Shown: piece by piece, positions 13,363-56,630 of the stretch | Layout: the number at the start of each line of letters is the position of its first letter | Position numbering within the stretch: the first letter of the stretch is position 1 | Origin: a virus | Taxonomy: Duplodnaviria > Caudoviricetes | Strand: one strand, 5' to 3' | IMG/VR virus record: IMGVR_UViG_3300007151_000001 | Location: 32,352 to 96,351 of that record | Length of the DNA: 64,000 bases | Made by a program: the position numbers and the translations under genes | The notes under the pieces: model-generated | What the model saw: only the letters and a program-made list of their open reading frames with translations | Databases searched by the model: none | Told to the model about the DNA's origin: nothing

Positions 13363-14181
13363 CTACAACTCCCGCATAGCCCCTAGCCAGTCCATATCGG
13401 CGGCTTCGTCCAAATGCATGACGGGCCGGGGGTTGTCCGTCCCGTCATGGGGCACGTCTTCCGCCCCGACCAACTGTCGGGCCGTGCGATACGGGCTGGG
13501 CCGGCAATAGGCGAACCAGGGCAGATGCCAGTAGGGGGGCGTCCACGGCAGATATTGATAGACGGGCGGGAAGACGTCGAAATCGTCGCCCCGGATGTCT
13601 CGGCCATGCAGATGCGCAAAGGGCACGGTACGTCCCGTCAGAACCAAATCTCCCGCATCCGTGGGTGCTTGGATAGGCGCCACCTGCCATTGGGCGACGC
13701 GGCCACGGCCCGCCTTGGCATCGGCGCCGACATAGGTGATGATTTGGAGTTCCGCCTGCAAGCGTTCCGGGTCGGCGAGAGCCAAGCACCCGATACGGGC
13801 AGTATGCGTCAAGCGGCGGCTCAACCGCTTCACCTTCCAGCGGCCCACCTTTTTCTGGACATTGCGCTGGCCGGGCCGTACCCGATGCATGCGATAGTCG
13901 GGGATACGGGTATGGGTGTAGACCGTGGAGTGCGTCACGGGCGTCTCGGGGACCAAAGGCGTACATGCCCAGAGAGGTTTGCCCTCAAGGGTATCCCGCA
14001 AGAACAAGGAGGGCAAATCGACAATCTGCAACCCGGCCTGCTGTGTGGAACGGTCGAAGTAGAGGAATGACAGCATGCTGTCCAACTGCAGACTGTCTGC
14101 CGGGGCGTGCGTAATGTACGGCGTGATGAGCCGGGCTTGCACGTGTACGAGGGTGAAGGTCTGGGCACCTTGGAGAGACAT
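13363..14181 (-). CDS. csf3: Type IV CRISPR Cas5-family subunit Csf3
   Basis: V.ARL.TP...LQLDSML N-terminus, LWACT, Gly-rich loop VGADAKAGRGRV.QW and PPYW motif; operon context. Confidence 0.75.
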   Translation of the reverse strand: MSLQGAQTFTLVHVQARLITPYITHAPADSLQLDSMLSFLYFDRSTQQAGLQIVDLPSLFLRDTLEGKPLWACTPLVPETPVTHSTVYTHTRIPDYRMHRVRPGQRNVQKKVGRWKVKRLSRRLTHTARIGCLALADPERLQAELQIITYVGADAKAGRGRVAQWQVAPIQAPTDAGDLVLTGRTVPFAHLHGRDIRGDDFDVFPPVYQYLPWTPPYWHLPWFAYCRPSPYRTARQLVGAEDVPHDGTDNPRPVMHLDEAADMDWLGAMREL

Positions 14182-14945
14182 CAGAATGGCGTATAGCCCG
14201 ACTCGAACTTTTTCATGTCAGGTACCCGCTGCAATACGGCGGTCCAGGTCTGAGGCCACAGTTGACGAATGGCATCCACGGCCCCTGCTTGGATGGCGGG
14301 CAAATAGGTGAAGGGGCCGACTCGCTGTCGCTCCGGGGGAATGCCGGCAGCGCGCATGCGGTCGTACACGGCATTGTAGGGCACGGCATAGGCCGCCAGA
14401 TAGGCCCAGATATCCGTGTCGGTCCAATCGTGCAACGGATTGCATACCAGCTGCGTAGATTTCCGCTGATACGCCGGTCCATGTCGCACGAAATGCCACG
14501 CCCGGTCTTGCGACTCGGTAGCCCGCAGTCCTAGCAACAAGCCTCGATACCCCAACCGCACCCCGAGGGGCACGCCGTTGGGTTCCATGACCTGCAACGG
14601 CGGGTCAGGGTCGGGCGGCGGCCAATGGTCGAATTCCACGCCCGGCGCAATCTCGTACCGCTGACGCACGGCCACATGGTGCAACAACGGCGTCTGGGCG
14701 ACGAAGCGCCGGGTCTCGGGCAACACCGTGAACTCTTCGTCCTGATAGAGACCCGGCAATTGAGGGTCGATTTGGCGGGCCATGTGCAGCAGCACCGTGC
14801 TGTCCTTGCCGCCGGAAAAGGCAACTACGGTATCCGGGGTCTCGGCCAAGTGCGTACGGAGCAGGTCTTGGGCTTGCTGTACGCGCCGCCGGAAGAGATC
14901 CGTGCGGCTATGGGCTTGATAGCCGAGTCGGGTCAAACGGTCCAT
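14181..14945 (-). CDS. cysH: CysH-like PAPS reductase family protein of type IV-B systems
   Basis: VAFSGGKDSTV PP-loop, GLRA.ES..R, NPL.DWT..DIWAY and Y..VYD motifs; ATG 2 nt after the csf2 stop. Confidence 0.85.
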   Translation of the reverse strand: MDRLTRLGYQAHSRTDLFRRRVQQAQDLLRTHLAETPDTVVAFSGGKDSTVLLHMARQIDPQLPGLYQDEEFTVLPETRRFVAQTPLLHHVAVRQRYEIAPGVEFDHWPPPDPDPPLQVMEPNGVPLGVRLGYRGLLLGLRATESQDRAWHFVRHGPAYQRKSTQLVCNPLHDWTDTDIWAYLAAYAVPYNAVYDRMRAAGIPPERQRVGPFTYLPAIQAGAVDAIRQLWPQTWTAVLQRVPDMKKFESGYTPF

Positions 14946-14947
14946 CG

Positions 14948-15793
14948 TCAGCTCAACTGCACGCGGTCCGTACCGAGGGTCCCGTCCAATAGGCCCTGCT
15001 GCATGGCGGCGTGATGCGTAGCGAGATGGTCCTGCCACGGGCCGATGTCCGTCGGCCCCTCCAACTGCTGCCAATGCACGCGGCCCCGACCCTGGCTGGC
15101 CCGCGCCCCGATGTATTGGTCCCAGGCTTGCAGTGCTGCCCTGCCCGCGGCGACGACTGCCGGCGTAGACCAGCGGTCGAAGAGCAGCTCGACCCAGATC
15201 TGGGTGCCGGCGGCCAACGTCTCGTACTGAAACAGCATTTGATTGCCGCTGGCGACGTCGCCCGTGCCCCGGGTGCGCACTTCGTCTTGGACCAGATCCC
15301 AAATGCTGATATCGGGCACCTCGAGTTCGGGGGCCAGCAGTCCCAATTTTTCTTGATTTTCCCGACAGACGACCAGAGCCAACACTTTGAGGTCGCTGCG
15401 GGGGAGCAGGAACGCGTCTACGCTGCCGCCGAGCAGCCGGAAGTTCGGATAGAGATCGAAGATCTGTTGGGCGTACTCGTTTTCCGCCGCCGGCGCCTTG
15501 CTGCCCTGCTTGAGCGAGCCGCCGGCATACAGCAGATTGACCGCACTCTGGCTCAAGCCGCCCACCGGAATTTCCAGCTGTTGCAGCAGCCTGTCGGCCA
15601 AAGGCGTGCGCAGCATGACGCTGCGCAAGGCGTTGGCCGACAGGCAGGGCATGCGCACGGGTACGCCGTCAATCACCTCCAGTTGCCGCATAAAGAGCGT
15701 GGTGTTGCCTTGGGTGGACAGCGTATCGCCGTGGGCCACCGGGGAAAGGGTTTCGAGCCGCAGCGTGATACGCGGCGGGGCTTCCAGGGTCAT
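14948..15793 (-). CDS. csf2: Type IV CRISPR Cas7-family backbone subunit Csf2
   Basis: LETLSPVAHG...GN..LF.R, P.LSANALR...R, LY.GG.L, QM.FQYETL..G and Gly-loop IGARASQGRG. Confidence 0.85.
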   Translation of the reverse strand: MTLEAPPRITLRLETLSPVAHGDTLSTQGNTTLFMRQLEVIDGVPVRMPCLSANALRSVMLRTPLADRLLQQLEIPVGGLSQSAVNLLYAGGSLKQGSKAPAAENEYAQQIFDLYPNFRLLGGSVDAFLLPRSDLKVLALVVCRENQEKLGLLAPELEVPDISIWDLVQDEVRTRGTGDVASGNQMLFQYETLAAGTQIWVELLFDRWSTPAVVAAGRAALQAWDQYIGARASQGRGRVHWQQLEGPTDIGPWQDHLATHHAAMQQGLLDGTLGTDRVQLS

Positions 15794-16182
15794 GAGGCGT
15801 CGTCTCCTTGGCGGCGTTGCCGCTTGTGGGTATCGTGGACATGCCGCGCCAACAGGATCAACGTCTGCGTCTGGGTCCGGTACAGTTGCAGCGCATCGGG
15901 CGACAGGTCACGTAACAGGGCGAGCAGCGTTTCGGGGCGACCCGCCGCCGGCCAACGCATATGCGCCGCCAGCTTGTCCCAGAAAAGACGGGGCCGGTCG
16001 CTCTGCAAAGCCGCAATGCGTACCCGGTCTTCGAGCCGCACGAAGCGGGTAGGACCCTCGAGCACGCCCACTCCGTCGTAGGTGTTGTACTGGTCGAGGG
16101 CATAGGCCAGCAGGGACACGGCTTGTTGTTCCGGCGGCGTCAAATCGGCAGTCAGGTCGGTGTCAAGGTCACTAATGTTCAC
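15790..16182 (-). CDS. csf4: Type IV-B small subunit Csf4 (Cas11-like)
   Basis: Small helical protein (FWDKL) coupled to csf2 by an ATGA overlap; start codon uncertain. Confidence 0.65.
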   Translation of the reverse strand: MNISDLDTDLTADLTPPEQQAVSLLAYALDQYNTYDGVGVLEGPTRFVRLEDRVRIAALQSDRPRLFWDKLAAHMRWPAAGRPETLLALLRDLSPDALQLYRTQTQTLILLARHVHDTHKRQRRQGDDAS

Positions 16183-16277
16183 TTTCGGATTCCTTGGTTC
16201 AGTGTTTCACCGGTGTCTGCCCGACCAGAGTCGGCTTGTACGACACCTCCCCACCTAACGACGCCGTGACACGCGCC
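16167..16277 (-). ncRNA. Stand-alone omegaRNA / single-guide-like RNA, second copy of the scaffold of the 54344..56044 nuclease
   Basis: 16277-16193 aligns to 55954-56039 at 78/86 nt with a compensatory change CCAAC/GTTGG to CCGAC/GTCGG; continues GAATCC-GAAA-GTGAACATTA-GTGACC, ending like the array-2 repeat. Confidence 0.8.
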
Positions 16278-16287
16278 GGAACTGAGC

Positions 16288-16995
16288 CTACTCCTCGGCA
16301 TAGGCCATGAGCAACGCGGGGATGAAATCGGCGTCGTCGCGGCGGGCTGCCACTTGCATGGCGTCGGCTTCGTGGCGCCAGCGCAGATAGCGGGCCGGCG
16401 TCTTCCATTGCCCGCGCAATTCGCTCTTCGTCACGCCCTGCGCCAGCAACCGGCTCATGCGCTGTACGAGGTCGTCTGTGCGCTGGGGATGCAGGGCGAT
16501 GCGCTGCGAGATGTCGTAATGCAGCGCATGCACGTATACAGCGGCCTGAGACGTGAATTCGACCAACGGCCACAACCGCGGTTTGGTGTCTGCCGTCATC
16601 AAGCCCGCCCCGTAGCAACGAGGCGTCATGGTCGGCAAGAGCGTTTTCCATGTCACCCTGTCGGGGTGCGGTGCGAACGTCGGCCAGACCACCGACCCGT
16701 CCTGTACCCAGAACGAGCGATTGCTGGTCATGCCTTTGGCTTTGGTATGCCCATAGAACCAGGCACACGCGGGGCAGATGTACCGGCTGAAGCGCAGATT
16801 TTCCGCATGCCGGGTGAAGGTGGACGTCTCGATTTGGGTCACGGGCACGGCTTGCGCCGTAGGCCGGCCACAGGTCGCACAAGGCGTATCCGGGGGCACG
16901 TCTTCCGGCTGATGTTTCGCCGCCAGGGGCGGGCAGCCCAAGGCTTCCCAGACGGCCTGGGATACGGAACGGGGCAACGCGGAAGACGACAGCAT
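16288..16995 (-). CDS. csf1: Type IV Cas8-like large subunit Csf1
   Basis: Zn-finger CATCG...TFT......ICPAC, NRS, and KPRLW motif; first gene of the operon. Confidence 0.7.
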   Translation of the reverse strand: MLSSSALPRSVSQAVWEALGCPPLAAKHQPEDVPPDTPCATCGRPTAQAVPVTQIETSTFTRHAENLRFSRYICPACAWFYGHTKAKGMTSNRSFWVQDGSVVWPTFAPHPDRVTWKTLLPTMTPRCYGAGLMTADTKPRLWPLVEFTSQAAVYVHALHYDISQRIALHPQRTDDLVQRMSRLLAQGVTKSELRGQWKTPARYLRWRHEADAMQVAARRDDADFIPALLMAYAEE

Positions 16996-27671: not shown

Positions 27672-28207
27672 ATCGCCAACTCCGCCTGGGTATGGGTCAA
27701 GACGAACCCCGCCCGATGTTCCCCCTTGGTTCGCCGCGGGTGCTCTTGCAGCACGCCCCGCCGCTGGAGGGCACGTCCCGCTTGCCGGACGGTCATGCGG
27801 GACGTACCGAGCTGCATGCCTATCTCCGTATACGACTGCCACACTACGCGGTTCTGCGTGAGCAGCCAGTCGTACAGCAGATTTTCGCTGCGGGTCCAGA
27901 AGGCCGCACGGAGGGCAGACGCACGGCCCCGCGCCGTCCAATAGGGCAAGCCGTACAGATGGCCCCGGGCATGCTTGGGTCTACGCGTTACCCGCAGGCA
28001 GCGCGCAGCGCTCAAATAGGCGACTTGCGGCGCCATCATTTTGGGATGCGACGAGACGGCAGCGGCGATCTGTCGATACGTCTGGGGCACCTCTACGCCC
28101 GGCTCGCCCTCGCACAACATCTCAATGTGCCGGAAGACCAACCAGGCGACTTGACCGAGACTGACGCGACTGCCGTGCGGGGAGGGCGGCAACGAGTCCG
28201 CCATCAT
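27668..28207 (-). CDS. Tandem winged-HTH protein (paralogue family)
   Basis: Same WTA..RAS.LRAAFW linker; coupled to dnaN. Confidence 0.6.
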   Translation of the reverse strand: MMADSLPPSPHGSRVSLGQVAWLVFRHIEMLCEGEPGVEVPQTYRQIAAAVSSHPKMMAPQVAYLSAARCLRVTRRPKHARGHLYGLPYWTARGRASALRAAFWTRSENLLYDWLLTQNRVVWQSYTEIGMQLGTSRMTVRQAGRALQRRGVLQEHPRRTKGEHRAGFVLTHTQAELAI

Positions 28208-29406
28208 CCTTTCCCGGCACGCGGTGGGGACATGGGCATGATTACATGCAGAAAGTCGAACTCTGCCTGCGGCACGGGACGCAAGACGCCCGGCCTGCCG
28301 GCTGCCGCCAATCCGATTTCCAATTCCGCCGCCCCCACATGTTGGAGGAAATCGATGACGTACTGGCCGTTGAACGCAATCTCCAGTGCAGGGCCGTCGA
28401 CCCGTGCCGGGATCTGGTTCGTATTTGCGCCCCGTTGCGCACTTTCCGCCGAGACTGCAATTTCGCCGTCCGGATGGAGGGTCTGTCGGGGGGCACACGT
28501 CAACGAGACCGTACCGTGGGACTCCCGCGAAAACAAGAACGCGGCCCGCACGCTTTGGTGCAAATCGTCCGTCTGCGCGTGGACCCGCGTCTGCGTCTCC
28601 GCATCCTCCGGGATAATCCGCCGATAGTCGGGGAACGTGCCGTCGATCAACTGGCAGATCAGCAACACCCGGTCGAACGTCCCGCCGTCATGCCCCCGAC
28701 CCCCCAAGGCAAAGTGGATCTGGTTGCCGTTGGTCGTGGTCGCGAGGCGGATCGGCCGACTGCGATCGGCGTCGCCCCAGAGCCGAGCCAATTCCGTCAA
28801 GGCGGTCGCTGGCACCAAGGCCCGCACTTCCGGTGTGCTCGCCGTCGTCGGCGCCGTGCAGACGCTGAGCCGGAAGCCGTCCGTGGCCGCCATCGTCAAG
28901 GTGTCGTTCGCAAAACGGAAATCCACCCCCGCCAGATTGGGACGCTCTGGCGTCTTGGCCGCGGCGAAGACGGTACGCTCGATCATGCCGCGCAAGCCCT
29001 GCAGATCCAATTGCACGGTCTCCCCGTCGCCAGCGATCTCCGTCGGGATTTCCGGGAATTCCGCGGCGGCCACCGTATGAAATGCCGCCTGATAACTACC
29101 GCACTGTACTTCCAGTTGCCGGGTTTCGTCCTGGTATTGCAGTACGATTTTGCGGTCCGCAGGCAGCAGGGCGACAAAATCCGTCATCAGACGCGCCGGG
29201 ACGGTCACGGCGCCCGGGGCCAGCACATCGCAGTCCACCCAGACGTTGAGGCTAATGTCCAGATTGGTGCTGACCAGCCGGATACCGTCCTCCGACGCCT
29301 CGAGCAGGATATTCTCCAAGACGGGCAATGTGGGCCGGCTGGCCACGATCCTACCTACATGCCCTAAGACCTTCTGTAGGTACTGTGCCAAAATCCGAAT
29401 GTGCAT
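28204..29406 (-). CDS. dnaN: DNA polymerase III beta sliding clamp
   Basis: PTLPVLENILLEA, TNLDI, ATDGFRL, LIDGTFPDYRRIIP, IAFNGQY and VIMPM motifs; AGGAG RBS. Confidence 0.95.
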   Translation of the reverse strand: MHIRILAQYLQKVLGHVGRIVASRPTLPVLENILLEASEDGIRLVSTNLDISLNVWVDCDVLAPGAVTVPARLMTDFVALLPADRKIVLQYQDETRQLEVQCGSYQAAFHTVAAAEFPEIPTEIAGDGETVQLDLQGLRGMIERTVFAAAKTPERPNLAGVDFRFANDTLTMAATDGFRLSVCTAPTTASTPEVRALVPATALTELARLWGDADRSRPIRLATTTNGNQIHFALGGRGHDGGTFDRVLLICQLIDGTFPDYRRIIPEDAETQTRVHAQTDDLHQSVRAAFLFSRESHGTVSLTCAPRQTLHPDGEIAVSAESAQRGANTNQIPARVDGPALEIAFNGQYVIDFLQHVGAAELEIGLAAAGRPGVLRPVPQAEFDFLHVIMPMSPPRAGKG

Positions 29407-29416
29407 AGATCCACTC

Positions 29417-29953
29417 CTATGTGGCCAACTCGGCGTCATCGCCGAGAGTCAAAACAATGTGGTTGCGGGAAATCACGCCGCGACGTTCCAGCGCCGCCAA
29501 AGCGTCGTTAATCGTGGCCTGCGAGTACTCCAGGGCCGCCGCCAACTCTTGTTGAGTTTGCGCCCGCTCCTGGGGTCCCCGCAGAAAATGGGTATATAGG
29601 CGGTCTTGCGCCGGCGTCCAAAAATGCCGACGCAGATAGGCGGCGCGGGCCCAGGGCGTCCAAGCCGGCGTCGCATAGCGGTGGGGCCGACAGTCGCGTC
29701 GCACTCGCAACCCGCCCGACGCTTCGAGGCGCCCGATTTGCCAGCTGACGAAACTCTCGTTGCTGTACAGCGGTTGCGCCAATTCTTTCAGCGAAAATTG
29801 CACCCACCCGTCGGAACTCTCGGCGCACGCTGCTTCGATGCGGTCAAAAATGCCCCGCGCCAACTGCCCGAAGGTCAAGACGGACCAAACAGGCGCAAGA
29901 ACATCCCTGTCACGAAGGCGCAGAACACCAAGGTGCCTATGCCATATCGCCAA
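29417..29953 (-). CDS. Tandem winged-HTH protein (paralogue family)
   Basis: WT.WARA..LR..FW linker; TQQELAAALEYSQATINDAL..LE.RG. Confidence 0.6.
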   Translation of the reverse strand: MAIWHRHLGVLRLRDRDVLAPVWSVLTFGQLARGIFDRIEAACAESSDGWVQFSLKELAQPLYSNESFVSWQIGRLEASGGLRVRRDCRPHRYATPAWTPWARAAYLRRHFWTPAQDRLYTHFLRGPQERAQTQQELAAALEYSQATINDALAALERRGVISRNHIVLTLGDDAELAT

Positions 29954-40815: not shown

Positions 40816-41284
40816 ATGAGGTCCTCCTGTGTGAATGCGAACCGCTACTGTGCCATAGGCGCCCTCTGCGCCCACCGTTGCGCAATCTCTGTCGCCGCTT
40901 GCTCACGGCGTTCCCGATTTTCCCAATTCAGGTCCAGCGCCCATCGGCTCGCTTCGCCAGGCGTCATGGCGTCCGCGTGCAGCAGGATCGCCCACCGAAA
41001 GCACGCCGCCACCGTCTCCGGTTCGTCCAAGCGCTCGGCATGCAGGTGATCCAGCCACTGCGCCGTACCTACGGCGGCCAAGTACCCTTCTTTGCCCCAT
41101 AGCATCTGGTACATCGCGGCGTATTCCGGCGGGGCCGCCGGCCCCGGCGCCGCCGCGACCAAATCCTGATAATACCCCTCGGCCCGCTGCAACAAGCGTG
41201 CCCGCTCGCCTTGTCGCATGTCGATTTCGCCTCTGTCTCTCGGGTCCCGCGGCGGTTGCCCCCGTCCTTCCCGCCGGAACTGTC

Positions 41285-44008: not shown

Positions 44009-46693
44009 TCAGAACGGCGCCTCCCACGCCTCGTCTTCTGCGTCATCCGTCAGTGATGCTTGCAAGATGTCCGTTTCTTTCTTGCACCAGCACCATTGCG
44101 ACTTCTTCTGGTAGTACTTCTTGACGTTCTCGAACCCGGCGTCCTGCATGTAATTGGTGAAGGCGCCGGGCGTGGGTTGGACGGACTCGTAGTCTTCCAT
44201 TTCTTGGGACAGCAACGCTTCGATTTCCGTCTTCGGCTTGCCGTCGATCAGGTCTTCCAACGTCTTCAAGGCGGCCCGGATCGGGTCTTGCACTTCTAGG
44301 GCTTTGTCCGCCGCCTCGAGAAATTCTTGCGGAATCGGCGGCGGTTCGTGGTTATACGCCCGCCATGCGCACCATACCAGCCAATGCACGATCTGCTTGA
44401 GCAGTTCCGGTTCCCCGCCTTCTTGGATTTTCCGTATCCGGTCGATCAGCGTCTTGTTGCCCCGCTTTCGCTTGGCAATCTGGGATGGCGCCATCTTCCG
44501 GTTCCAGTCGATAGTCAGTTGTCGTACTTCCACCCCTTCGTCCATGTCCTTGATCTCGAACCGGGCATTGCCCGTAATGAAGAGCAACCCCAAGAACGGC
44601 GCTTCGAACGTGTCCTTGTATTTGGTGGCCACCGACAGACTGGTGCGGCTGGTAATCTGCTTGAGCTGGTCCACGTCCACGCGGACCTTCTTCACGTCGT
44701 CGATGAGCATCAATGCCGCGTCCCGCTGCAACGCCTTGTACAGATCCGGGTAATTTTCGCTGTCGTTGTACTCGAGGGTCTTGCGGCTGGCCATAATCCC
44801 CAAATGCCCGAGGGCCGCCAGCACCGCATGCGGCAACGTGGTTTTGCCGCTGTCGGCCAACCCGACTACTTGCACATAGACCTTCATAATCTGTTTGCAC
44901 AGCCCGGCCCCGAAAAGGTACTCGAAGGTCCGCCGCACTGCCGGGATATGCATCAATTCGTCCAACACCTCTTGCCACTCGCGCAAACGCCCGTCCGGTC
45001 CCGGCAACCCCTCTTCGGGGGGAATGGCCAACTCTTCGTTCGTCAAGGGCAACGCCAAGCACCCCGTCGGAAAATGGCGGGTCGGGTCGAATTCCTCTAC
45101 GCGTAACGTCTTGTTGCGCAAGTCCACGATGCCGTTGGGCAAAGGCACGCACCAATCCGCCCGCCGCGGCGGATATTCGTTTTGGAAATGCGCTTCCAAA
45201 TGCCCGCGCAACACCACCTGTTCCGACCCTTTCGCCGTAGTTCCCAACCCATACACGGACCGTTCTTTGGGGATTTCATCGCCGTCCTTGCCTTCCCGCT
45301 TGGACTCGACATAGGACAGCGTGCCGGCATTTTGGGCATCTAACGCTTGCTTCAACGCCGGCATATATTCCATTTTGATGGCTGTCCATACCTGTTCCCA
45401 GGTCCCCTCTTCCCAATAGGATCGCCGCCGCCATGCGTCGTCTTCGTCCTTATATAATGCCCCGGCAATCCACCACTGGGCATCTTGTGCGCCCCGCCCC
45501 TGACATCGCCATCGCCCCCGAAAGAAGGTGGCGATGTCGACTGCCAGCACTGCCATCGGATTGTGCCCCCATTGATCCCAAGCCGGCGGATGCGTCGAGA
45601 CCAAGCACTCCGGGAATTTGCGGGTCTGCGCCTCGCCCGACGCGGCTTTCCGTGGCTTCGGCGCCGCCCGCTCCGTCTGCCGCAATTGGGGATCGTAGGG
45701 GATCGCGGCCTCGGCCCAAGCCTCGAGGGTCTGCCGCCGCACTGCGGGGTCCAAGACGTCGGCGATGTCGTTGGGATCGGCCCCAGCAGGACGCAAACTG
45801 ACTCGCACTAAAGCCGGGGCGCATTCGGCCAACAGCCGCTCTGCCAAATCCTCGGCGCAAGTCCGCCCAGCACCATCGGCATCCGCAAACACCGTGTGCT
45901 GCAAGCCCGCCGGCACAGGAGCCAGGTCTTGCTGACCTACGAATTTCGCGCCGCCTTGGATCGTAGTAACGAAATCGATACCCGCCAGCCGTAATACGCG
46001 GACGGCATCCACGCAGGTTTCCCCCTCGAACCAACAGACATGAGCGCCCGGCGGCAACTTCTGCAGTCTATGGATGTCGTAAGGGTAGTACGGCTGCCGA
46101 CCGCCGCGCCCGATAAACCATTGGTCACGGCCCGGCTCGTGCGCGTGGAACTGACGGCTTTCGGTCTTGGGTTCGCCGTTCTTTTTCAAGACCGGTTGCT
46201 TTTCGGCGTCTCGCCGGGCATAGCGAATGAATGCCACATAGGGGTGCCCGGCAGGATTGTGATAGAAGTGCGCGCCCAAGGGATAGCGCTGCTCTAGGTC
46301 CTGCCGCCGGCGCGGCCGTTCGTCGGGCGCTTTCTTCCGGCCACGCCCCCGGCTGTGCGCTGGGGGCGGCGGAGTCAAGCCCGTGATGTCCCAGGCGCCG
46401 CGCCAACGCTCTTGCCAAGTACAGCCGCCGCTGCTTTCGGTGAAACAGTTGAGCCAGTAGCGACCCTCGTATTCCGTCAGACTGCACGAAGCATGATCGT
46501 CCGGATGGCTGGGGTCCGTACACGACCCCGCATATCCTCGGCCGGACTGCTGGTAGCCCAAGGCTTCCGCCAAGCGTGCGAGGCTCCAGCCGTGGAATTC
46601 CCGAATGGCACGCTCGTAATTGAGACTGCCGTCGGGCAAATAGCAGTTCGGGTTAGTGGCCGATGATGGTGGGGGTTGCGGGGTAGGGGGCAC
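44009..46693 (-). CDS. Primase-helicase: Zn-binding domain + TOPRIM + D5/P4-like SF3 helicase
   Basis: C....H.D..AS...NCF....C, FEGE..V, DAD.AG, NGIVDL and GLADSGKTT Walker A. Confidence 0.85.
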   Translation of the reverse strand: MPPTPQPPPSSATNPNCYLPDGSLNYERAIREFHGWSLARLAEALGYQQSGRGYAGSCTDPSHPDDHASCSLTEYEGRYWLNCFTESSGGCTWQERWRGAWDITGLTPPPPAHSRGRGRKKAPDERPRRRQDLEQRYPLGAHFYHNPAGHPYVAFIRYARRDAEKQPVLKKNGEPKTESRQFHAHEPGRDQWFIGRGGRQPYYPYDIHRLQKLPPGAHVCWFEGETCVDAVRVLRLAGIDFVTTIQGGAKFVGQQDLAPVPAGLQHTVFADADGAGRTCAEDLAERLLAECAPALVRVSLRPAGADPNDIADVLDPAVRRQTLEAWAEAAIPYDPQLRQTERAAPKPRKAASGEAQTRKFPECLVSTHPPAWDQWGHNPMAVLAVDIATFFRGRWRCQGRGAQDAQWWIAGALYKDEDDAWRRRSYWEEGTWEQVWTAIKMEYMPALKQALDAQNAGTLSYVESKREGKDGDEIPKERSVYGLGTTAKGSEQVVLRGHLEAHFQNEYPPRRADWCVPLPNGIVDLRNKTLRVEEFDPTRHFPTGCLALPLTNEELAIPPEEGLPGPDGRLREWQEVLDELMHIPAVRRTFEYLFGAGLCKQIMKVYVQVVGLADSGKTTLPHAVLAALGHLGIMASRKTLEYNDSENYPDLYKALQRDAALMLIDDVKKVRVDVDQLKQITSRTSLSVATKYKDTFEAPFLGLLFITGNARFEIKDMDEGVEVRQLTIDWNRKMAPSQIAKRKRGNKTLIDRIRKIQEGGEPELLKQIVHWLVWCAWRAYNHEPPPIPQEFLEAADKALEVQDPIRAALKTLEDLIDGKPKTEIEALLSQEMEDYESVQPTPGAFTNYMQDAGFENVKKYYQKKSQWCWCKKETDILQASLTDDAEDEAWEAPF

Positions 46694-47413: not shown

Positions 47414-47758
47414 ATGCAACTGCCGCTGTTTCCGCCTAAGCCCCCGCCGCCGACCGAGGGGTACGAGCCGCCGGACGAAGAGCCGGCGGGCGAGTACGAA
47501 GCTTGGTGCGACGAGATGGACGCTGACGGCTTGGTGATTGCCGGGGTCTTAGCTCGATTGGCGTTGGACGCGGCGGTCCAAGCCGACGGTCTGACGATGA
47601 CGCAACTGGAAACCGCGGTCGCGGAACAATTCGGGGCGCCGGAACCGGAAGCAGACGAACCCGGCCATTACTGTATGATGAGGCGCACTCATATCGGGCG
47701 TGTGATGCACGGCATGGGCTGGCAAGTGGCGGGAGAGCGGTATCGGCCGCGCTGGTGA
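47414..47758 (+). CDS. Small acidic protein starting with a clamp-binding-like motif QLPLF
   Basis: AGGAGG RBS; MQLPLF N-terminus. Confidence 0.6.
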   Translation: MQLPLFPPKPPPPTEGYEPPDEEPAGEYEAWCDEMDADGLVIAGVLARLALDAAVQADGLTMTQLETAVAEQFGAPEPEADEPGHYCMMRRTHIGRVMHGMGWQVAGERYRPRW

Positions 47759-47775
47759 GCGCAAGGAGCATGACC

Positions 47776-48141
47776 ATGATCGAACTGACGGCGCAGGCGG
47801 CGGACCGCTTGCAACGGGTACTCGCAGAGCAAGGGAAAGCGCCGGCGACGGGATTGCGGGTGTTCGTGAAGGGCGGCGGCTGCGGCGGCTTGCAGTACGG
47901 CATGACGTTGGAAGACACGGAACGCCCCGGCGATACGCAGGCGGAACAACACGGCCTGGCCGTGTACGTGGACATGATGAGCCTGCCGCATCTGCAGGGG
48001 GCCCGGATCGATTATGCGGACTCGCTGATGGGCGGCGGGTTCCACATCGAAAACCCCAACGCGGTCAGCACGTGCGGATGCGGATCGAGTTTTCGTACGG
48101 CGGGCAGCGAGACGGGGGACGAAGGGTCGTGCGGCGGCTAG
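47776..48141 (+). CDS. HesB/IscA/ErpA A-type Fe-S cluster carrier
   Basis: LRVFVKGGGCGGLQYGM and NPNAVSTCGCGSSF motifs. Confidence 0.95.
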   Translation: MIELTAQAADRLQRVLAEQGKAPATGLRVFVKGGGCGGLQYGMTLEDTERPGDTQAEQHGLAVYVDMMSLPHLQGARIDYADSLMGGGFHIENPNAVSTCGCGSSFRTAGSETGDEGSCGG

Positions 48142-48843: not shown

Positions 48844-50199
48844 GTGCCTGCCGCCTCCAGTATAGTTGAAGACACCAAGCCTCGCACTTTACGCTTGCGC
48901 TTGTTGCCGGGCACCCGTGCCAACGGCGAATACTTGGCGGGCTTGGCTGGGGCCAATCGCGCCGTCTGGAACCACTTCGTAGCCCTGAACCAAGAACGGT
49001 CTCGTCATCACCGCAACTGGCGGGATTACCGTATCGGCCCAGAACCAGCCCCGCCGCAATACCGTCGCTATTCCATGCAAAAAGAATTCACGCAGTTGCG
49101 GCGGGAATGGCCTTGGTTGCAGAAATACAGCAGCGACGAAGTCCGATATTGCCTGAAGTATCTGGAAGACACATACAAAGCCCATTTCAAGGACCCGGAA
49201 GAAAAGGGGTGGCCGAAATTTAAAGCCAAACATTTTGCGACGCCTGCCTTCACGGTTTCTCAAGGCAAGATCCAATCTGGGTGTCTGTGGATCCCCAAAT
49301 GCGGTTGGATGCGCCTGCAAGGGGAGCGGCTGTATGCCGGCTGTCAGGTCAAGACCGTGCGGGTACGGCAAGAAGGCTCGCCCCAGAGGCCCAAGTGGTA
49401 CGCCTATGTCTGCTATGACGTTCCTGTGTCCCAACTTCGTCAGGGAGCGCAGACAGGCATCGTGGGGGTCGACCGCGGCGTTACCGATGCCCTGATGGAC
49501 AGCTGCGGCGAGGCGTATCGGATGCCGGACGTATCCCGCCTGGAAGCCAAGAAGAGACGCTACGAACGCATCAAGTCACGGCGGCGCAAAGGGTCGGCGC
49601 GCCGAAGACGTATCGTAGGTCGTCTGGCCAAGATCCATCGCAAGATACGGCGGATCCGGGATACGGCCACGCACCTACACAGTCGCCAGTTGGCGGACAA
49701 GGCGCATACCATCGTCTTCGAATATCTGAAAATCAAGCAGATGACGAAATCTGCGAAAGGCACGCAAGCCGATCCCGGCCAGAACGTCAAAGCCAAGGCC
49801 GGCCTCAATCGTGAAATTCTGGCCGCCGGATGGGGCGGGACGGTTGCCAAGACGTCGTACAAGGCGGGGCGGGTCTTGCAAGTCCCGGCTGCCTATACCA
49901 GTCAAACCTGCAGCCGTTGCGGCTGCGTAGCGAAGGAGAGTCGCCAGGGGAAACGATTTCGGTGTATCGATTGTGACTTCATGGCAGACGCCGATCAGAA
50001 TGCGTCTGTCAACATCGAGCGATTGGGAAGAGAACAATTGATCGCTCAGGGCATTCCTAGGGATGCTGTTTGGCCCATGTCGCGGGGGCCGCTGCCCAGG
50101 GAGAGGCGTTCTCGTCAGAGACCTCGACGATCTGCGGAACCAGTTGTTCAACCAGACCAACCGACCAACCTTGTCCAGCGGTCGTTATGGTTTGGCTGA
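48844..50199 (+). CDS. tnpB: CRISPR-associated TnpB-like RuvC nuclease 1 (451 aa; nascent type V)
   Basis: RuvC-I VGVDRG, RuvC-II VFEYL..KQMTKSAKG, Zn-finger SQTCSRCG...CIDC, RuvC-III ADQNASVNI; the array starts after a single base following the stop. Confidence 0.9.
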   Translation: MPAASSIVEDTKPRTLRLRLLPGTRANGEYLAGLAGANRAVWNHFVALNQERSRHHRNWRDYRIGPEPAPPQYRRYSMQKEFTQLRREWPWLQKYSSDEVRYCLKYLEDTYKAHFKDPEEKGWPKFKAKHFATPAFTVSQGKIQSGCLWIPKCGWMRLQGERLYAGCQVKTVRVRQEGSPQRPKWYAYVCYDVPVSQLRQGAQTGIVGVDRGVTDALMDSCGEAYRMPDVSRLEAKKRRYERIKSRRRKGSARRRRIVGRLAKIHRKIRRIRDTATHLHSRQLADKAHTIVFEYLKIKQMTKSAKGTQADPGQNVKAKAGLNREILAAGWGGTVAKTSYKAGRVLQVPAAYTSQTCSRCGCVAKESRQGKRFRCIDCDFMADADQNASVNIERLGREQLIAQGIPRDAVWPMSRGPLPRERRSRQRPRRSAEPVVQPDQPTNLVQRSLWFG

Positions 50200-50200: not shown

Positions 50201-50433
50201 CCCTCAACTCGCGCACGCGCACGAGGGCGACCGTTGCGAATACGTAATCGTCGGGCGCCGTGTAATCGCCCCTCAACTCGCGCACGCGCACGAGGGCGAC
50301 CATTTCCCCCATGATGATGTCGAGCTCGTGCGGCCCCTCAACTCGCGCACGCGCACGAGGGCGACCTGCAGATCCAGCCACTTAGACATCATGCCCGCAT
50401 CCCCTCAACTCGCGCACGCGCACGAGGGCGACC
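50201..50433 (+). CRISPR. CRISPR array 1: 4 repeats, 3 spacers
   Basis: Identical 32-nt CCCTCAACTCGCGCACGCGCACGAGGGCGACC at 50201, 50270, 50335 and 50402; unique spacers of 37, 33 and 35 nt (one less each if the preceding C belongs to the repeat). Confidence 0.95.
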
Positions 50434-50453
50434 AACTCACACAGGAGGACACC

Positions 50454-50663
50454 ATGTGTAACAACCTTTCCCAGCGCTGCGCCTCGTTGCAGGCGCTCAA
50501 CCGGCAGATCAAGGCGTCATTTCGCCTGATCTATTGGCTGACCGACAGGGTCGAATGGGCCAGTGACGACGACCATCGGAAGCTGCTCGAGAAAACGATT
50601 GCGGAGCAGCACAAACAGATCGAGAGTCTGCTGGCGGTGCAACGTCTGTTGTGGGAAGAATAG
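50454..50663 (+). CDS. Small helical protein directly after array 1
   Basis: ACACAGGAGG RBS begins a few nt after the last repeat. Confidence 0.65.
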   Translation: MCNNLSQRCASLQALNRQIKASFRLIYWLTDRVEWASDDDHRKLLEKTIAEQHKQIESLLAVQRLLWEE

Positions 50664-50823
50664 ATTCCGTTCCCTACGCGCCGTGCCCGCTCTCCTAGCG
50701 GGCACGGCGCGTAGAAGACATCACACACAGGAGTAGGATGATGACGTTGGATGTTGGACCCCCGCAGAGAGTCTTGCCGGGAGGGGGCGGCCTTGCGGGT
50801 ATCGAAAAGAGGCGGAAGCAGCG

Positions 50824-53299: not shown

Positions 53300-53506
53300 A
53301 CGATGTCGGAGCGGGTCTTCTATGTGGCTTGGACGATAGGCGTCTGCTTGCTGCTGGGCTTTGCCGTGCTGTCGTTGCTGCTGCCGGGATGACGATGTAG
53401 TATAATCTACGGCGTCGCCGTTGGTTTTCGCATTGCCGACTGCGATGTATCCTCCGCCGGCGGTTCGCCGCGAGCCGCCGGCACTCTCTTCACACAGGAG
53501 ACTCGA

Positions 53507-54343: not shown

Positions 54344-56044
54344 ATGGCGGTGGGAGCACTAGCGACAGACCTAGGACATCTTCCCCTTTTCGACTATGCC
54401 CGTAGGCAAGCGGCGGGGCAGTCCAGTATGCCGCGGGTATCGCCTGTCTACAGGCCGGTGCGCTACAGGATTTACCCGATGACTTCCGATAATGCCCGGT
54501 ACTGGGAAGAAATCGACGCGGCCCGCTGCGCCGTGCGCAACCGGTGTCGGGCTTTGCGCAAGGCTAGAGCGCGCCTGTATGCGGCTTGTAGCCAACCCGC
54601 GGACGAACAGACCGAATTGCTGCAAGACGCGGAGTTTACCCGCAAGCTGGCCTTCCTGCGTCAGCACTTGGAATTGCTTTGCGCTAGCGCGTCGGGCCGA
54701 AAATACGCAGAACAGCTGCTCGCAGTCCTGAACTGGTTTGAGGGGCACCGTACCGCTCCGGTCCCGCGCATGCCAAGCAACAAGAGACTGGACTCGTGGG
54801 TAGCGTTGTGTGCAGACTTCACAGTGTTTTACGACTGCATAATGCCGTGGCTGAAGCAGTACCCTTATGGTGCGGTGCGGTCGGTGCTGAAAGACATGGC
54901 TACCACCTACAAGAACGCATACGACGACTCCCAGCCCAATGCGCGGTTGCCGAAGTATCACGATCCCGCTGAAGATGGGAAACGGCACAAGGGCTTTACT
55001 TTGCTTGACGGTGCGAAGGTCGAAGACGGGTGGGTGTATGTCCCGGGAACCCGAGACCAGAAAGGGACCTGGCATCTATTTCGCCGGCGCGGGGACAACA
55101 AATTCGAATCGTATCCTATCGGTCCTGTGCGGGTCTGGCAGGAACGGCAACGTGGGCGCAGGCGTGCGCGGTGGTTCATTACGCTGTGGTATAAAGTGCC
55201 GTGCAACGTGCTGTACGCGGATGTCGCAGATACCGGGCTAAGGGGGTTGGATCGAAATTCCGCGGAGGGAGAGACTGCGGCTCCTTATGTAGACAGTACG
55301 GGACATGTCTGGAGTGTGCCGAATACCGAGCGCTTGGAGGAACGAAAGAAGCGCCTGCAACGCAAAGCGGCTAAACAAGAGGGCAAGAACCGCAAGACCA
55401 AGGCCGCGGGGTCACGGAATTGGCATAAGACGCAGGCAAAGATACGTTGCATCGACGCCAAGATTGCCGCGGTTTGGCATCACGCCCTGCAAGAAATGAC
55501 TACGGAGATGAAACGCAACGCTCGGTATTGGGGGATCGAAAATCTGAACTTGCTCGGGATGACTACTTCCGGGAAGGGCAGCGTGGAAGAGCCAGGGAAG
55601 AACGTCAAAGCGATTGCCGCCAAGAACCGGGGGATGAGAGCCGCCCGGTTGGGGAAAGCGCAAGACATGCTGGAATACAAGTTGCCTGCGGGGCACTTGA
55701 TCGGCGTGCATGCCGCCTATACCAGTCAGCAATGTAGCGATTGCGGGTATACGGACAAAAAGAACCGGCTGTCGCGGGCCGTCTTCCGCTGTGGAAGTTG
55801 CGGATTGGAACTGCATGCGGATTGGAATGCTGCGCGGAATATTGCGCAGCGCGCCCTGGAGCAGTTGAAGGCGGGGGACGTATCTGCCGATGATCCGCGA
55901 CATAAGGAAATAGCCAAATTGGCGGTGGCTTTACTGGAGCCGTCGATGTTGGAGGCGCGTGTCACGGCGTCTTTAGGTGGGGATGGTGTCGTGCAATCCA
56001 ACTCCGGTTGGGCAGACACCGGTGAAGCACTGAACCAAGTTTGA
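54344..56044 (+). CDS. CRISPR-associated TnpB/Cas12f-like RuvC nuclease 2 (566 aa) with expanded N-terminal REC region
   Basis: RuvC-I RGLDRN, RuvC-II WGIENL...GMT.SGKGS, Zn-finger SQQCSDCG...CGSCG, RuvC-III ADWNAARNI; phage-type ACACAGGAG RBS and TGTGATACAAT promoter. Confidence 0.9.
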   Translation: MAVGALATDLGHLPLFDYARRQAAGQSSMPRVSPVYRPVRYRIYPMTSDNARYWEEIDAARCAVRNRCRALRKARARLYAACSQPADEQTELLQDAEFTRKLAFLRQHLELLCASASGRKYAEQLLAVLNWFEGHRTAPVPRMPSNKRLDSWVALCADFTVFYDCIMPWLKQYPYGAVRSVLKDMATTYKNAYDDSQPNARLPKYHDPAEDGKRHKGFTLLDGAKVEDGWVYVPGTRDQKGTWHLFRRRGDNKFESYPIGPVRVWQERQRGRRRARWFITLWYKVPCNVLYADVADTGLRGLDRNSAEGETAAPYVDSTGHVWSVPNTERLEERKKRLQRKAAKQEGKNRKTKAAGSRNWHKTQAKIRCIDAKIAAVWHHALQEMTTEMKRNARYWGIENLNLLGMTTSGKGSVEEPGKNVKAIAAKNRGMRAARLGKAQDMLEYKLPAGHLIGVHAAYTSQQCSDCGYTDKKNRLSRAVFRCGSCGLELHADWNAARNIAQRALEQLKAGDVSADDPRHKEIAKLAVALLEPSMLEARVTASLGGDGVVQSNSGWADTGEALNQV

Positions 56045-56066
56045 ATCTCATTCCCAGAAATTGTGA
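55954..56066 (+). ncRNA. tracrRNA-like scaffold with terminal anti-repeat
   Basis: Hairpin GGTGTC...CCAAC-TCCG-GTTGG...GACACC (55985-56020); GTCAC at 55961-55965 complements the repeat end; 56044-56066 AATCTCATTCCCAGAAATTGTGA pairs with the repeat core; duplicated at 16193-16277. Confidence 0.75.
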
Positions 56067-56089
56067 AAAGTGGTTTTTGTGAGTCAAGG

Positions 56090-56630
56090 GTCACAATCAT
56101 AATTTCGATTGGGAAGTGATTGTGACCCCCAGCGCCTTCGCATTGTCTACGATGGTATCGTCACAATCATAATTTCGATTGGGAAGTGATTGTGACCAAT
56201 GCGGAAGTTGAAGACATGCCCCGTCTCGAAGTCACAATCATAATTTCGATTGGGAAGTGATTGTGACCCCCCACAGGTTGAGGAATGCGCGGGCGAGCCG
56301 TTGTCACAATCATAATTTCGATTGGGAAGTGATTGTGACCCCAGGGGTTGCACCAGATGCCCGGCCCCCGCGAGTCACAATCATAATTTCGATTGGGAAG
56401 TGATTGTGACCTGTAGTGATCGTCGTAGGTACTAGGACACACGGGGTGTCACAATCATAATTTCGATTGGGAAGTGATTGTGACCCTTCGTCTTCCACAG
56501 CGCCGTCGCGGCAGGCGTCATGTCACAATCATAATTTCGATTGGGAAGTGATTGTGACCATGCCGTGAGTAGCAGACGCTCATGTGGGTATCGTCACAAT
56601 CATAATTTCGATTGGGAAGTGATTGTGACC
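56090..56630 (+). CRISPR. CRISPR array 2: 8 repeats, 7 spacers
   Basis: Identical 38-nt GTCACAATCATAATTTCGATTGGGAAGTGATTGTGACC at 56090, 56160, 56231, 56303, 56374, 56448, 56522 and 56593; spacers of 32, 33, 34, 33, 36, 36 and 33 nt. Confidence 0.98.

What the first reader, a model, noticed from the sequence alone, without database searches (positions are those of the whole stretch)
13363..56630. Three CRISPR effector modules on one phage with no adaptation or Cas6 genes in view
Seen: a type IV-B operon, two RuvC nucleases and two arrays with perfectly conserved repeats and unique spacers, but no cas1, cas2, cas4 or cas6 in 64 kb. Inference: spacers are acquired in trans by host machinery and the modules serve inter-MGE competition or host manipulation. 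The arrays could also feed the array-less IV-B complex.
Basis: partly seen in the sequence, partly recalled or inferred. Interest (0 to 1): 0.7.

Follow-up and report, generated by a model that had tools for sequence, protein, structure and literature searches.

The report
Phage with three adaptation-less CRISPR modules
A complete 96-kb phage of an uncultured bacterium carries an array-less type IV-B CRISPR module and two small transposon-derived Cas12-like nucleases, each with its own short spacer array; having no spacer-acquisition genes is normal for these kinds of system.

Summary
The window is the last 64 kb of a complete 96,351-bp phage genome with terminal repeats. It holds a full type IV-B set (csf1, cas11, csf2, cysH-like, csf3; 13363-16995, minus strand). 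It also holds two TnpB-like RuvC nucleases with intact catalytic residues. Each is followed by its own array: 4 identical 32-nt repeats, and 8 identical 38-nt repeats. No Cas1, Cas2, Cas4 or Cas6 model matches anywhere in the 96 kb.

Missing adaptation genes are the rule for IV-B and for TnpB-proximal type V variants. Neither repeat occurs in 151 genomes of the likely host family (Caldilineaceae), so acquisition in trans lacks its usual signature. No target was found for any of the 10 spacers. Published IV-B work argues against the arrays feeding the IV-B complex.

New here: a covariance model built only from the omega-RNA cores of related transposon TnpBs hits the 3' end of the first nuclease gene (49.8 bits, E 2.5e-9). 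The repeat's 3' end is complementary to the scaffold loop that pairs with the transposon end in relatives. The second nuclease has no relative above 39% identity among 1.84 billion representatives. This is a new member of known kinds.

The parts
13363..14181 (-). csf3 (type IV Cas5), 272 aa
   Evidence: PADLOC typeIV_Cas5 Csf3_0_IV, 1.3e-16.
14181..14945 (-). cysH-like PAPS-reductase-family gene. The start is inferred at the Met just after the csf2 stop. The PP-loop SGGKDS is present, and no C-terminal ECGLH-type motif is seen.
   Evidence: Pfam PF01507, 4.9e-16; NCBIfam partial matches far below the equivalog cut-offs; translation. The ECGLH motif name is recalled, not from a call.
14948..15793 (-). 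csf2 (type IV Cas7), 281 aa
   Evidence: PADLOC typeIV_Cas7, 5.9e-31; 48 relatives at 30-49% identity.
15790..16182 (-). cas11 (type IV small subunit), 130 aa
   Evidence: PADLOC typeIV_Cas11, 2.6e-7; 31-41% identical to the gene in the same position in 14 viral IV-B loci.
16288..16995 (-). csf1 (type IV Cas8-like large subunit), 235 aa, with CxxC..CxxC
   Evidence: PADLOC Csf1_0_IV, 5.1e-11; translation.
48844..50199 (+). Cas12-A: TnpB-like RuvC nuclease, 451 aa. D210/E293/D384 and the zinc-finger cysteines are intact. The C-terminal tail is non-conserved.
50070..50148 (+). omega-RNA-type scaffold core inside the 3' end of the Cas12-A ORF
   Evidence: Covariance model R1 was built from 34 homologous TnpB loci, with the phage excluded. 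It scores 49.8 bits, E 2.5e-9, full length; the next best hit in 64 kb is 16.8 bits.
50149..50199 (+). long imperfect hairpin, in the position of the relatives' variable terminal hairpin
   Evidence: MFE fold; alignment with homolog tails. The role is inferred.
50201..50433 (+). CRISPR array A: 4 x 32-nt repeat and 3 spacers. It starts 1 nt after the Cas12-A stop codon.
   Evidence: The repeat fold is modest, z = -1.2.
50454..50663 (+). 69-aa coiled-coil-like ORF. Its AGGAGG and ATG follow the last repeat, and a strong hairpin lies at 50668-50720.
   Evidence: Sequence; Pfam PUMA_CC 0.002, below the cut-off. Membership in the module is inferred from position only.
54344..56044 (+). Cas12-B: orphan TnpB-derived RuvC nuclease, 566 aa, with a unique N-terminal ~120 aa
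56090..56630 (+). CRISPR array B: 8 x 38-nt repeat and 7 spacers. The repeat is an 11-bp hairpin ending in ...GACC.
   Evidence: Repeat fold -16.3 kcal/mol, z = -4.5 on the plus strand.

Best explanation
The window belongs to a complete 96-kb tailed phage, most likely of Caldilineaceae (Chloroflexota). It carries three independent RNA-guided or RNA-binding modules of kinds that never include their own adaptation genes.

(1) An array-less type IV-B Csf complex (Csf1, Cas11, Csf2, Csf3) with its hallmark CysH-like partner. By analogy with the only solved IV-B complex, it probably assembles on RNA that does not come from the arrays. Its role does not depend on the two arrays and is still unknown.

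(2) Cas12-A is a nuclease-competent TnpB. It has lost its transposon context: no TnpA, no right-end motif, single copy. It keeps its family's omega-RNA core inside the 3' end of its ORF and is followed at once by a 4-repeat array. I infer a split guide. The ORF-embedded scaffold acts like a tracrRNA. Each repeat supplies a hairpin plus a 5-nt element (GCGAC, 1 nt before the spacer). That element pairs with the loop of scaffold hairpin 1 (GUCGC), which is the same pseudoknot that in relatives joins this loop to the transposon end next to the guide.

(3) Cas12-B is a much more diverged TnpB derivative with an added N-terminal region. Its 8-repeat array has a strongly hairpinned repeat, which suggests a self-contained crRNA handle.

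Both nucleases most likely cut DNA matching their 10 spacers, probably DNA of competing mobile elements.

Shown: gene identities, intact catalytic residues, the arrays, absence of adaptation genes in the whole genome, and the omega-RNA core.
Inferred: the pseudoknot and split-guide model, DNA cleavage, what is targeted, the host, and the independence of IV-B from the arrays.
For: - Complete genome: 99-bp terminal repeat; IMG/VR classes the ends as direct terminal repeats and CheckV gives 100%. GC is even at 0.57-0.65 across the window.
- Phage genes: head morphogenesis protein, sliding clamp, helicase, Erf, primase, HNH.
- IV-B set.
- The same operon, without arrays or Cas12-like genes, occurs on 14 of 22 related IMG/VR loci. 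0 of those 14 whole records has the TnpB/Cas12 TNB domain.
- Cas12-A is 41-53% identical to multi-copy TnpBs, chiefly of Caldilineaceae MAGs. It is sister to that clade in a quick tree (SH-aLRT 99).
- The omega-RNA core structure is supported in relatives: 10 of 15 pairs show compensatory changes across 34 sequences. The model hits 50070-50148 at 49.8 bits.
- Loop to right-end pairing in relatives: GGGAC/GUCCC, GGGAAU/AUUCCC, GGGGA/UCCCC.
- The phage's GUCGC/GCGAC sit at the equivalent positions.
- No Y1 TnpA in the genome. No right-end motif near either nuclease gene.
- Cas12-B: best relative 39% identity, and nothing aligns to residues 1-117 among 1.84 billion representatives. TnpB fold over residues 33-517, TM 0.83 by target.
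- Literature: Cas12n has a tracrRNA overlapping its ORF and a disordered C-terminal loop (PMC12216341, introduction read). Cas12s arose from TnpB many times, with arrays downstream, and most V-U variants have no other cas genes (PMC10691335, passages).
- Host link: phage genes at 65-77% nucleotide identity to Caldilineaceae chromosomal genes, namely clamp, methylase, IscA-like and tnpB.
Against: - No spacer target was found, so neither cleavage nor the inter-MGE role is tested. Searches: own genome; 151 Caldilineaceae genomes, where the weak hits fall in unrelated genes and frames; INPHARED phages.
- The 5-bp pseudoknot match has a chance probability of about 0.02-0.03, and no second phage is available to show covariation.
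- A scan for a longer anti-repeat found nothing above shuffled controls.
- The fold of the A scaffold region is not more stable than shuffles, z = -0.05.
- No omega-RNA core was detected at the 3' end of Cas12-B, so its guide architecture is a guess.
- Expression is unknown.
- The host assignment rests on gene similarity only. No host spacer matching the phage was seen, and the first 32 kb was not searched.
- Gene calls are heuristic.
- The PADLOC scan of the other 95 ORFs showed only the first 25 of 81 families, so weak matches to other models could have gone unseen.
Confidence: 0.6

Rival explanations
1. One reading: the phage arrays are extended in trans by the host's Cas1-Cas2, as in viral mini-arrays that copy the host repeat, and their crRNAs also load the array-less IV-B complex.
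For: Cas1 is present in 37 of 61 sampled genomes of the candidate host family. All repeats are identical, 4 of 4 and 8 of 8, which fits a young or maintained array. Trans acquisition is reported for plasmid type IV-A3 (preprint 10.1101/2023.06.23.546257; title and abstract only, seen in the listing).
Against: 0 of 151 family genomes carry either repeat at up to 3 mismatches. None in IMG/VR. No array in the metagenome scan. The repeats look like type V handles with a hairpin next to the spacer, not like type IV repeats. The solved IV-B complex did not enrich co-expressed crRNAs, and IV-B co-occurs negatively with other CRISPR systems (PMC7937560). 14 related viral IV-B operons have no arrays.
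Confidence: 0.12
2. Cas12-A is just an ordinary IS200/IS605-type TnpB element that inserted into the phage. The four repeats are incidental duplications of no function.
For: It is 41-53% identical to multi-copy transposon TnpBs. The omega-RNA core is kept. There are only 3 spacers.
Against: There is no TnpA in the genome. The family's right-end motif GTATATAAKTCCC is absent from the locus. The gene is single copy. None of the 80 homologous genome loci has an array next to tnpB. The four repeats are perfectly identical, with spacers of 33-37 nt, and start 1 nt after the stop codon. The scaffold loop has changed together with the repeat's 3' end.
Confidence: 0.08
3. The type V modules act as gene regulators of the phage or host, by binding without cutting at partly matching sites, rather than as weapons against other elements.
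For: Domesticated TnpBs and Cas12m act as repressors (abstracts of 10.1101/2023.11.30.569447 and PMC11013384 in the listing). Spacer B2 matches 18 of 25 bases, including its first 9, at 56897-56921 inside the next gene. The last repeat of array A abuts the ribosome-binding site of a small ORF.
Against: The RuvC D/E/D triads are intact in both proteins, whereas known regulators have lost them. The partial self-match is at the level of chance, by my rough estimate of 0.1-0.2. No significant self-match was found.
Confidence: 0.1
4. The contig is a chimera that joins a phage to plasmid or chromosomal CRISPR fragments.
For: Read coverage could not be checked. CRISPR systems are described as rare in phages under 200 kb (PMC11656645).
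Against: The 99-bp direct terminal repeat closes the genome, with CheckV at 100%. GC is even across the window. The modules are embedded between phage replication and structural genes on both sides. Related IV-B operons occur on 14 other viral contigs.
Confidence: 0.03

Closest known systems
Type V-N (formerly V-U4) Cas12n, e.g. Rothia dentocariosa RdCas12n (PDB 9J09)
   Same: A small TnpB-like monomer-sized RuvC nuclease with a downstream array, no other cas genes, a guide scaffold overlapping the 3' end of the ORF, and a non-conserved C-terminal tail (PMC12216341). RdCas12n is the best PDB sequence hit for both proteins (6.3e-24 and 1.2e-16). The PADLOC Cas12u4 model hits both.
   Different: The PDB match covers only the RuvC/zinc-finger half. 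Cas12-A aligns over its full length to ISDra2 TnpB (5.5e-22) and is far closer to transposon TnpBs of Caldilineaceae (up to 53% identity). No long repeat:anti-repeat duplex was found. The PAM is unknown. Clade membership was not tested against reference Cas12n sequences.
IS200/IS605 TnpB with omega-RNA (the Caldilineaceae/Rhodothermales family found here; ISDra2 TnpB as the solved example)
   Same: Cas12-A has the same domain set and the same omega-RNA core (CM hit). It scores above NCBIfam's guided_TnpB cut-off.
   Different: No TnpA, no right-end motif, single copy. The position where relatives have the right end plus the guide is occupied by a CRISPR array.
Type IV-B CRISPR-Cas (Mycobacterium sp. 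JS623 Csf complex; PMC7937560)
   Same: csf1, cas11, csf2 and csf3 plus a cysH-like gene; no array, no Cas6, no adaptation genes.
   Different: It lies on a lytic-type phage genome rather than a megaplasmid. The cysH-like gene sits between csf2 and csf3, whereas the viral relatives that have both genes place it after csf3. It shares a genome with two type V systems, although IV-B is reported to co-occur negatively with other CRISPR systems.
'Fuxiviridae' archaeal viruses with type IV-B (PMC10848311)
   Same: Virus-borne IV-B with a CysH-like gene next to csf3 and no adaptation module. The authors likewise propose inter-MGE conflict and found no protospacer.
   Different: There the mini-array (2 repeats) lies in the IV-B locus itself. 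Here the IV-B locus has no array, and the arrays belong to type V genes 32-40 kb away.
Adaptation-less CRISPR systems of huge phages, and phage-encoded miniature Cas12 (CasPhi/Cas12j, Caslambda)
   Same: Phage-borne single-effector type V with a short array and no cas1/cas2. The general statement comes from review PMC11656645. The CasPhi and Caslambda details are recalled.
   Different: This genome is 96 kb, not over 200 kb. The effectors are 451 and 566 aa and sit much closer to TnpB than CasPhi does (only weak PDB hits to CasPhi, 2.7e-5 and 4.7e-5).

Membership tests
Type IV-B CRISPR-Cas | Csf1, Cas11, Csf2 (Cas7) and Csf3 (Cas5) encoded together | tested here: met
   PADLOC hits of 5.1e-11, 2.6e-7, 5.9e-31 and 1.3e-16 in one co-directional operon.
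Type IV-B CRISPR-Cas | Associated cysH-like (PAPS/APS-reductase family) gene | tested here: met
   Pfam PF01507, 4.9e-16, between csf2 and csf3. It is far below the NCBIfam CysH equivalog cut-offs.
Type IV-B CRISPR-Cas | No CRISPR array and no Cas6/Csf5 at the locus | tested here: met
   No tandem array between 11.2 and 39.3 kb. 0 candidates for four Cas6-type Pfam models in 96 kb. A Csf5-specific model was not run.
Type IV-B CRISPR-Cas | No DinG (IV-A) helicase and no HD large subunit (IV-C) | not tested
   No DinG- or HD-specific model was run. The csf1 here is 235 aa with no Pfam hit.
Type V CRISPR-Cas (Cas12 in the broad sense) | A single effector with a split RuvC (D, E, D) and a zinc finger, next to a CRISPR array | tested here: met
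   Both proteins. The arrays lie 1 nt and 45 nt downstream of the stop codons.
Cas12n / type V-N | Membership of the Cas12n clade | tested here: inconclusive
   The Cas12u4 model hits A almost end to end (3e-53), but a Cas12f model (1.9e-55) and guided_TnpB (2.7e-57) score as well or better. No tree with reference Cas12n sequences was made.
Cas12n / type V-N | Guide scaffold (tracrRNA) overlapping the 3' end of the ORF | tested here: met
   For Cas12-A only: CM hit at 50070-50148 inside the ORF. For Cas12-B nothing was detected.
Cas12n / type V-N | 5'-AAN PAM | not testable with these tools
   No protospacers were found.
Transposon-borne TnpB (OMEGA) | TnpB protein plus omega-RNA | tested here: met
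   Cas12-A.
Transposon-borne TnpB (OMEGA) | Transposon ends; mobility (TnpA and/or several copies) | tested here: not met
   No Y1 TnpA. The right-end motif is absent at both loci. One copy of each in 96 kb (for the arrays; for the proteins). A serine-recombinase TnpA was not searched.
Viral mini-array that exploits the host CRISPR system | Repeat identical to a host array repeat | tested here: not met
   0 of 151 Caldilineaceae-family genomes at up to 3 mismatches. The true host is not known.

The most novel reading that the evidence does not exclude
The Cas12-A locus may be a caught-in-the-act birth of a CRISPR system from a transposon guide RNA, on a phage. The TnpB omega-RNA core survives as a cis-encoded scaffold. 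The transposon end has been replaced by a repeat whose 3' end co-evolved with the scaffold loop, which preserves the guide-adjacent pseudoknot. Spacers would then have been added without any Cas1-Cas2. If so, this small locus (451-aa protein, ~130-nt scaffold, 32-nt repeat) could let one test how adaptation-less type V arrays gain spacers, and how an omega-RNA splits into tracrRNA and crRNA. A further open possibility is that IV-B and the two Cas12 modules cooperate on one phage despite the reported negative co-occurrence of IV-B with other CRISPR systems.
Probability: 0.3. Interest if true: 0.65.

Novelty: new member of a known kind. Interest (0 to 1): 0.42.

Why it matters
- It adds a complete, mid-sized (96 kb) phage of an uncultured Chloroflexota lineage to the short list of viruses that carry several CRISPR effector modules.
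- It shows that the combination of IV-B with type V is not a general trait of IV-B phages: 0 of 14 related records have it.
- The Cas12-A locus gives a concrete and compact example for the proposal that type V arrays arise at the omega-RNA position of TnpB. It comes with a specific, mutable base-pairing prediction.
- Cas12-B is a sequence orphan, so it may be of interest as a small nuclease.
- None of this overturns current views.

Tried and rejected
- Close relatives of Cas12-A, Cas12-B and the primase in IMG/VR by single-protein search: none. No related phage was therefore available to compare spacers.
- Exact repeats in IMG/VR: 0.
- Relaxed stem pattern of repeat B in metagenome contigs: 15 single palindromic matches, no array.
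- Sequence similarity of the repeats to the flanks of 136 homologous loci: only chance-level matches of 10-14 nt.
- A longer anti-repeat near either array: nothing above shuffled controls.
- Rfam: only the tRNA at gathering score; nothing meaningful around the arrays.
- Spacer targets: none. The apparent clusters of weak hits for spacers B4 and B6 in Caldilineaceae fall in unrelated genes and reading frames, so I rejected them.
- Sequencing runs: none was listed and no RNA holder was listed. Coverage, chimerism and expression could therefore not be examined, and read laying was not used.
- The notes of earlier sessions were closed.
- The PADLOC scan of 95 other ORFs listed only 25 of 81 families, mostly methylase and helicase models. 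It does not by itself exclude weak Cas matches.
- Promoter and terminator scan of 46.6-57.5 kb: no more promoter-like sites than in shuffles.
- The careful tree did not finish, so only the quick tree is reported.
- No structure prediction or complex prediction was run.
- Supplementary tables of PMC10691335 (its 40 Cas12-U groups) were not seen. They may already hold relatives of Cas12-A or Cas12-B.


Full report
**What the window is.** The 64-kb window is bases 32352-96351 of a single 96,351-bp virus record. The record has a 99-bp direct terminal repeat, and IMG/VR/CheckV rate it 100% complete. GC is even at 0.57-0.65. Phage genes surround the modules:
- an SPP1-gp7-like head morphogenesis protein;
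- a sliding clamp, an SNF2-type helicase and an Erf-like annealing protein;
- a primase/helicase at 44009-46693;
- an HNH endonuclease and head proteins.

The first 32 kb, outside the window, holds very large ORFs of 1528, 2065, 1139 and 924 aa on the plus strand.

**Checking the observation.** The type IV-B operon lies on the minus strand:
- csf1 at 16288-16995;
- cas11 at 15790-16182;
- csf2 at 14948-15793;
- a cysH-like gene at 14181-14945;
- csf3 at 13363-14181.

Two TnpB/Cas12-like genes lie on the plus strand at 48844-50199 (451 aa, "Cas12-A") and 54344-56044 (566 aa, "Cas12-B"). Both have OrfB_IS605 and TNB zinc-finger domains, and both score above NCBIfam's guided_TnpB cut-off. The RuvC D/E/D residues and both CxxC pairs are present in each.

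Array A starts one base after the Cas12-A stop codon. It has four identical 32-nt repeats and three spacers. Array B starts 45 nt after Cas12-B. It has eight identical 38-nt repeats and seven spacers, and ends at 56630.

Six-frame HMM searches of the whole record found no candidate for Cas1, Cas2, Cas4 or four Cas6-type families.

**Host and relatives.** Cas12-A is 41-53% identical to TnpBs that occur in several copies in 4-5-Mb genomes. A scan of one genome per species kept 80 loci. The closest are from Caldilineaceae MAGs, and 20 of the 80 come from one Rhodothermales MAG. Other phage genes are 65-77% identical at the nucleotide level to Caldilineaceae chromosomal genes: the clamp, the N6 methylase, an IscA-like gene and a small ORF downstream of csf3. 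A Caldilineaceae host is therefore likely but not proven. No spacer-like perfect match from those genomes to the phage was seen.

The phage itself has no close relative in IMG/VR by three protein probes.

**Is the missing adaptation module surprising?** No.
- Passages of PMC10691335 state that Cas12s arose from TnpB many times, that the array normally lies downstream like the omega-RNA, and that most V-U variants are linked to arrays but to no other cas gene.
- Passages of PMC11656645 and PMC7937560 describe IV-B as lacking array, Cas6 and adaptation genes.
- Type V effectors do not use Cas6 (established knowledge, recalled).

**Trans acquisition from the host.** Cas1 is present in 37 of 61 sampled genomes of the candidate host family. 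But neither repeat occurs in any of 151 genomes of that family at up to three mismatches. Neither occurs in IMG/VR. A relaxed pattern for repeat B gave only 15 isolated palindromes in the metagenome contigs. Viral mini-arrays that borrow host machinery carry the host's own repeat, and that signature is missing here. The idea is not excluded, because the true host is unknown, but nothing supports it.

**Do the arrays feed IV-B?** This is unlikely.
- In the one solved IV-B complex, crRNAs from a co-expressed and correctly processed array were not enriched.
- The same authors cite a negative co-occurrence of IV-B with other CRISPR systems.
- Using an alignment of Csf2 relatives, I found 22 viral loci. 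Fourteen carry the same operon at 41-50% Csf2 identity.
- None of the 14 has an array or a Cas12-A/B homologue within 10 kb.
- None of the 14 whole records has a TNB-domain gene. Most are fragments; one is rated 100% complete and one 83%.

IV-B on viruses is thus a recurrent, array-less, self-standing module. Its pairing with type V is particular to this phage.

**What Cas12-A is.** Its C-terminal tail (after residue ~390) is not conserved as protein. The DNA under it, however, aligns with the region downstream of the zinc finger in relatives. Across the 80 loci this region is a conserved omega-RNA with four parts:
- hairpin 1;
- a three-tier stem;
- a variable hairpin;
- the right end, GTATATAA(G/T)TCCC, after which the copies diverge.

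I aligned 34 non-redundant cores, leaving the phage out. RNAalifold gave 15 pairs, and 10 of them show compensatory changes. The covariance model built from that alignment was run over the whole window with filters off. It hits 50070-50148 on the plus strand over its full length, at 49.8 bits and E 2.5e-9. The next best hit is 16.8 bits, and nothing appears near Cas12-B. The Cas12-A gene therefore still carries its family's guide-RNA scaffold. This is the feature described for Cas12n, "a tracrRNA region that overlaps with its ORF" (PMC12216341, introduction).

The transposon context is gone. There is no Y1 TnpA and no right-end motif at the locus. None of the 80 transposon homologues has an array.

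**A specific pairing.** In relatives, the loop of hairpin 1 (GGGAC, GGGAAU or GGGGA) is complementary to the last bases of the right end (GUCCC, AUUCCC or UCCCC), directly before the guide. In the phage the same loop positions read GUCGC. The repeat ends GCGAC-C, directly before the spacer. A 5-bp match between a 9-nt loop and an 8-nt tail arises by chance in about 2-3% of shuffles. This is suggestive, not proof.

I read the locus as a split omega-RNA, with the scaffold coming from the ORF's 3' end and each repeat supplying a hairpin plus the pseudoknot partner. Against a classic tracrRNA, no longer anti-repeat was found.

**What Cas12-B is.**
- Cas12-A and Cas12-B share 31% identity over 392 residues.
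- An exhaustive HMMER search of 1.84 billion representatives found 7443 relatives. The best is only 39% identical (E 8.4e-38), and none aligns to residues 1-117.
- The Atlas model aligns to TnpB folds over residues 33-517.
- In a quick tree Cas12-A is sister to the Caldilineaceae TnpB clade. Cas12-B sits on a very long, unresolved branch and is not sister to Cas12-A. The two are therefore not a recent duplication.
- Repeat B is a strong hairpin (z = -4.5) that folds better on the plus strand. This fits a self-contained handle, but that is inference.

**Targets.** None of the 10 spacers matches the phage itself, INPHARED phages or 151 Caldilineaceae genomes. The weak hits examined lie in different genes and frames. 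The biological role, most plausibly cutting competing mobile elements, therefore remains inferred.

**Literature check.** My searches listed work on:
- virus-borne IV-B;
- Cas12n;
- phage miniature Cas12s, including 2025-2026 preprints on phage Cas12 variants, of which I saw only the listings.

None of the listed papers reports IV-B together with two type V modules on one phage. This is not a claim that no such report exists. Supplementary tables were not available.

**Verdict.** The modules are new members of known kinds. The most interesting piece is the omega-RNA remnant and the candidate pseudoknot at Cas12-A. Interest is moderate.

Noticed in passing
window 11040-11111 (-): The phage's only tRNA has anticodon UUA, so it is an ochre (UAA) suppressor (Rfam tRNA 44.8 bits; ARAGORN; no tRNA in the first 32 kb). 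TAA still ends 24 of 100 heuristic ORFs, and reading through TAA lengthens the long open frames less than reading through TAG or TGA does. There is no clear sign of TAA recoding.
   Followed up: partly
window 12030-12467, 12467-12907, 12913-13359 (-): Three tandem paralogous ORFs of ~147 aa lie directly downstream of csf3. Each matches the C-terminal specificity domain of Type ISP/IIG restriction-modification enzymes (PADLOC PDLC03597 2.7e-22, 1.5e-6, 1.1e-5). The first is 70-77% identical in DNA to multi-copy sequences in 18 of 151 Caldilineaceae genomes.
   Followed up: partly
window 7967-9265 (+): A second, unrelated PAPS-reductase-like gene of the common phage kind (phrog_424, 1.1e-43). 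It has no Pfam hit at 0.01. The phage therefore has two members of this superfamily, one viral-type and one IV-B-type.
   Followed up: no
window 28204-29439 (-), 39406-40875 (-), 47755-48138 (+): The sliding clamp, the N6 DNA methylase and an IscA/HesB-like Fe-S assembly gene are 65-77% identical in DNA to Caldilineaceae chromosomal genes. The IscA-like gene accounts for most of the matches found in 142 of 151 genomes. This is a useful host clue.
   Followed up: partly
window 56198-56222 vs 56897-56921: Spacer B2 matches 18 of 25 bases, including its first 9, inside the gene just downstream of array B. It is probably chance, but it is the only self-similarity of any spacer.
   Followed up: partly
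window 50402-50720: The last repeat of array A is followed 12 nt later by AGGAGG and the ATG (50454) of a 69-aa coiled-coil-like ORF, then a strong GC-rich hairpin at 50668-50720. Nuclease, array and small ORF may therefore be one transcript.
   Followed up: no
loci L003-L082 (genome contigs): The TnpB family related to Cas12-A has a well-conserved omega-RNA with clear covariation and a right end GTATATAA(G/T)TCCC. One Rhodothermales MAG chromosome supplies 20 of the 80 kept loci, so the element is highly active there.
   Followed up: partly
loci L166-L179 (viral contigs) vs window 13363-16995: In the viral IV-B relatives that have both genes, the cysH-like gene follows csf3; in this phage it lies between csf2 and csf3.
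   Followed up: no
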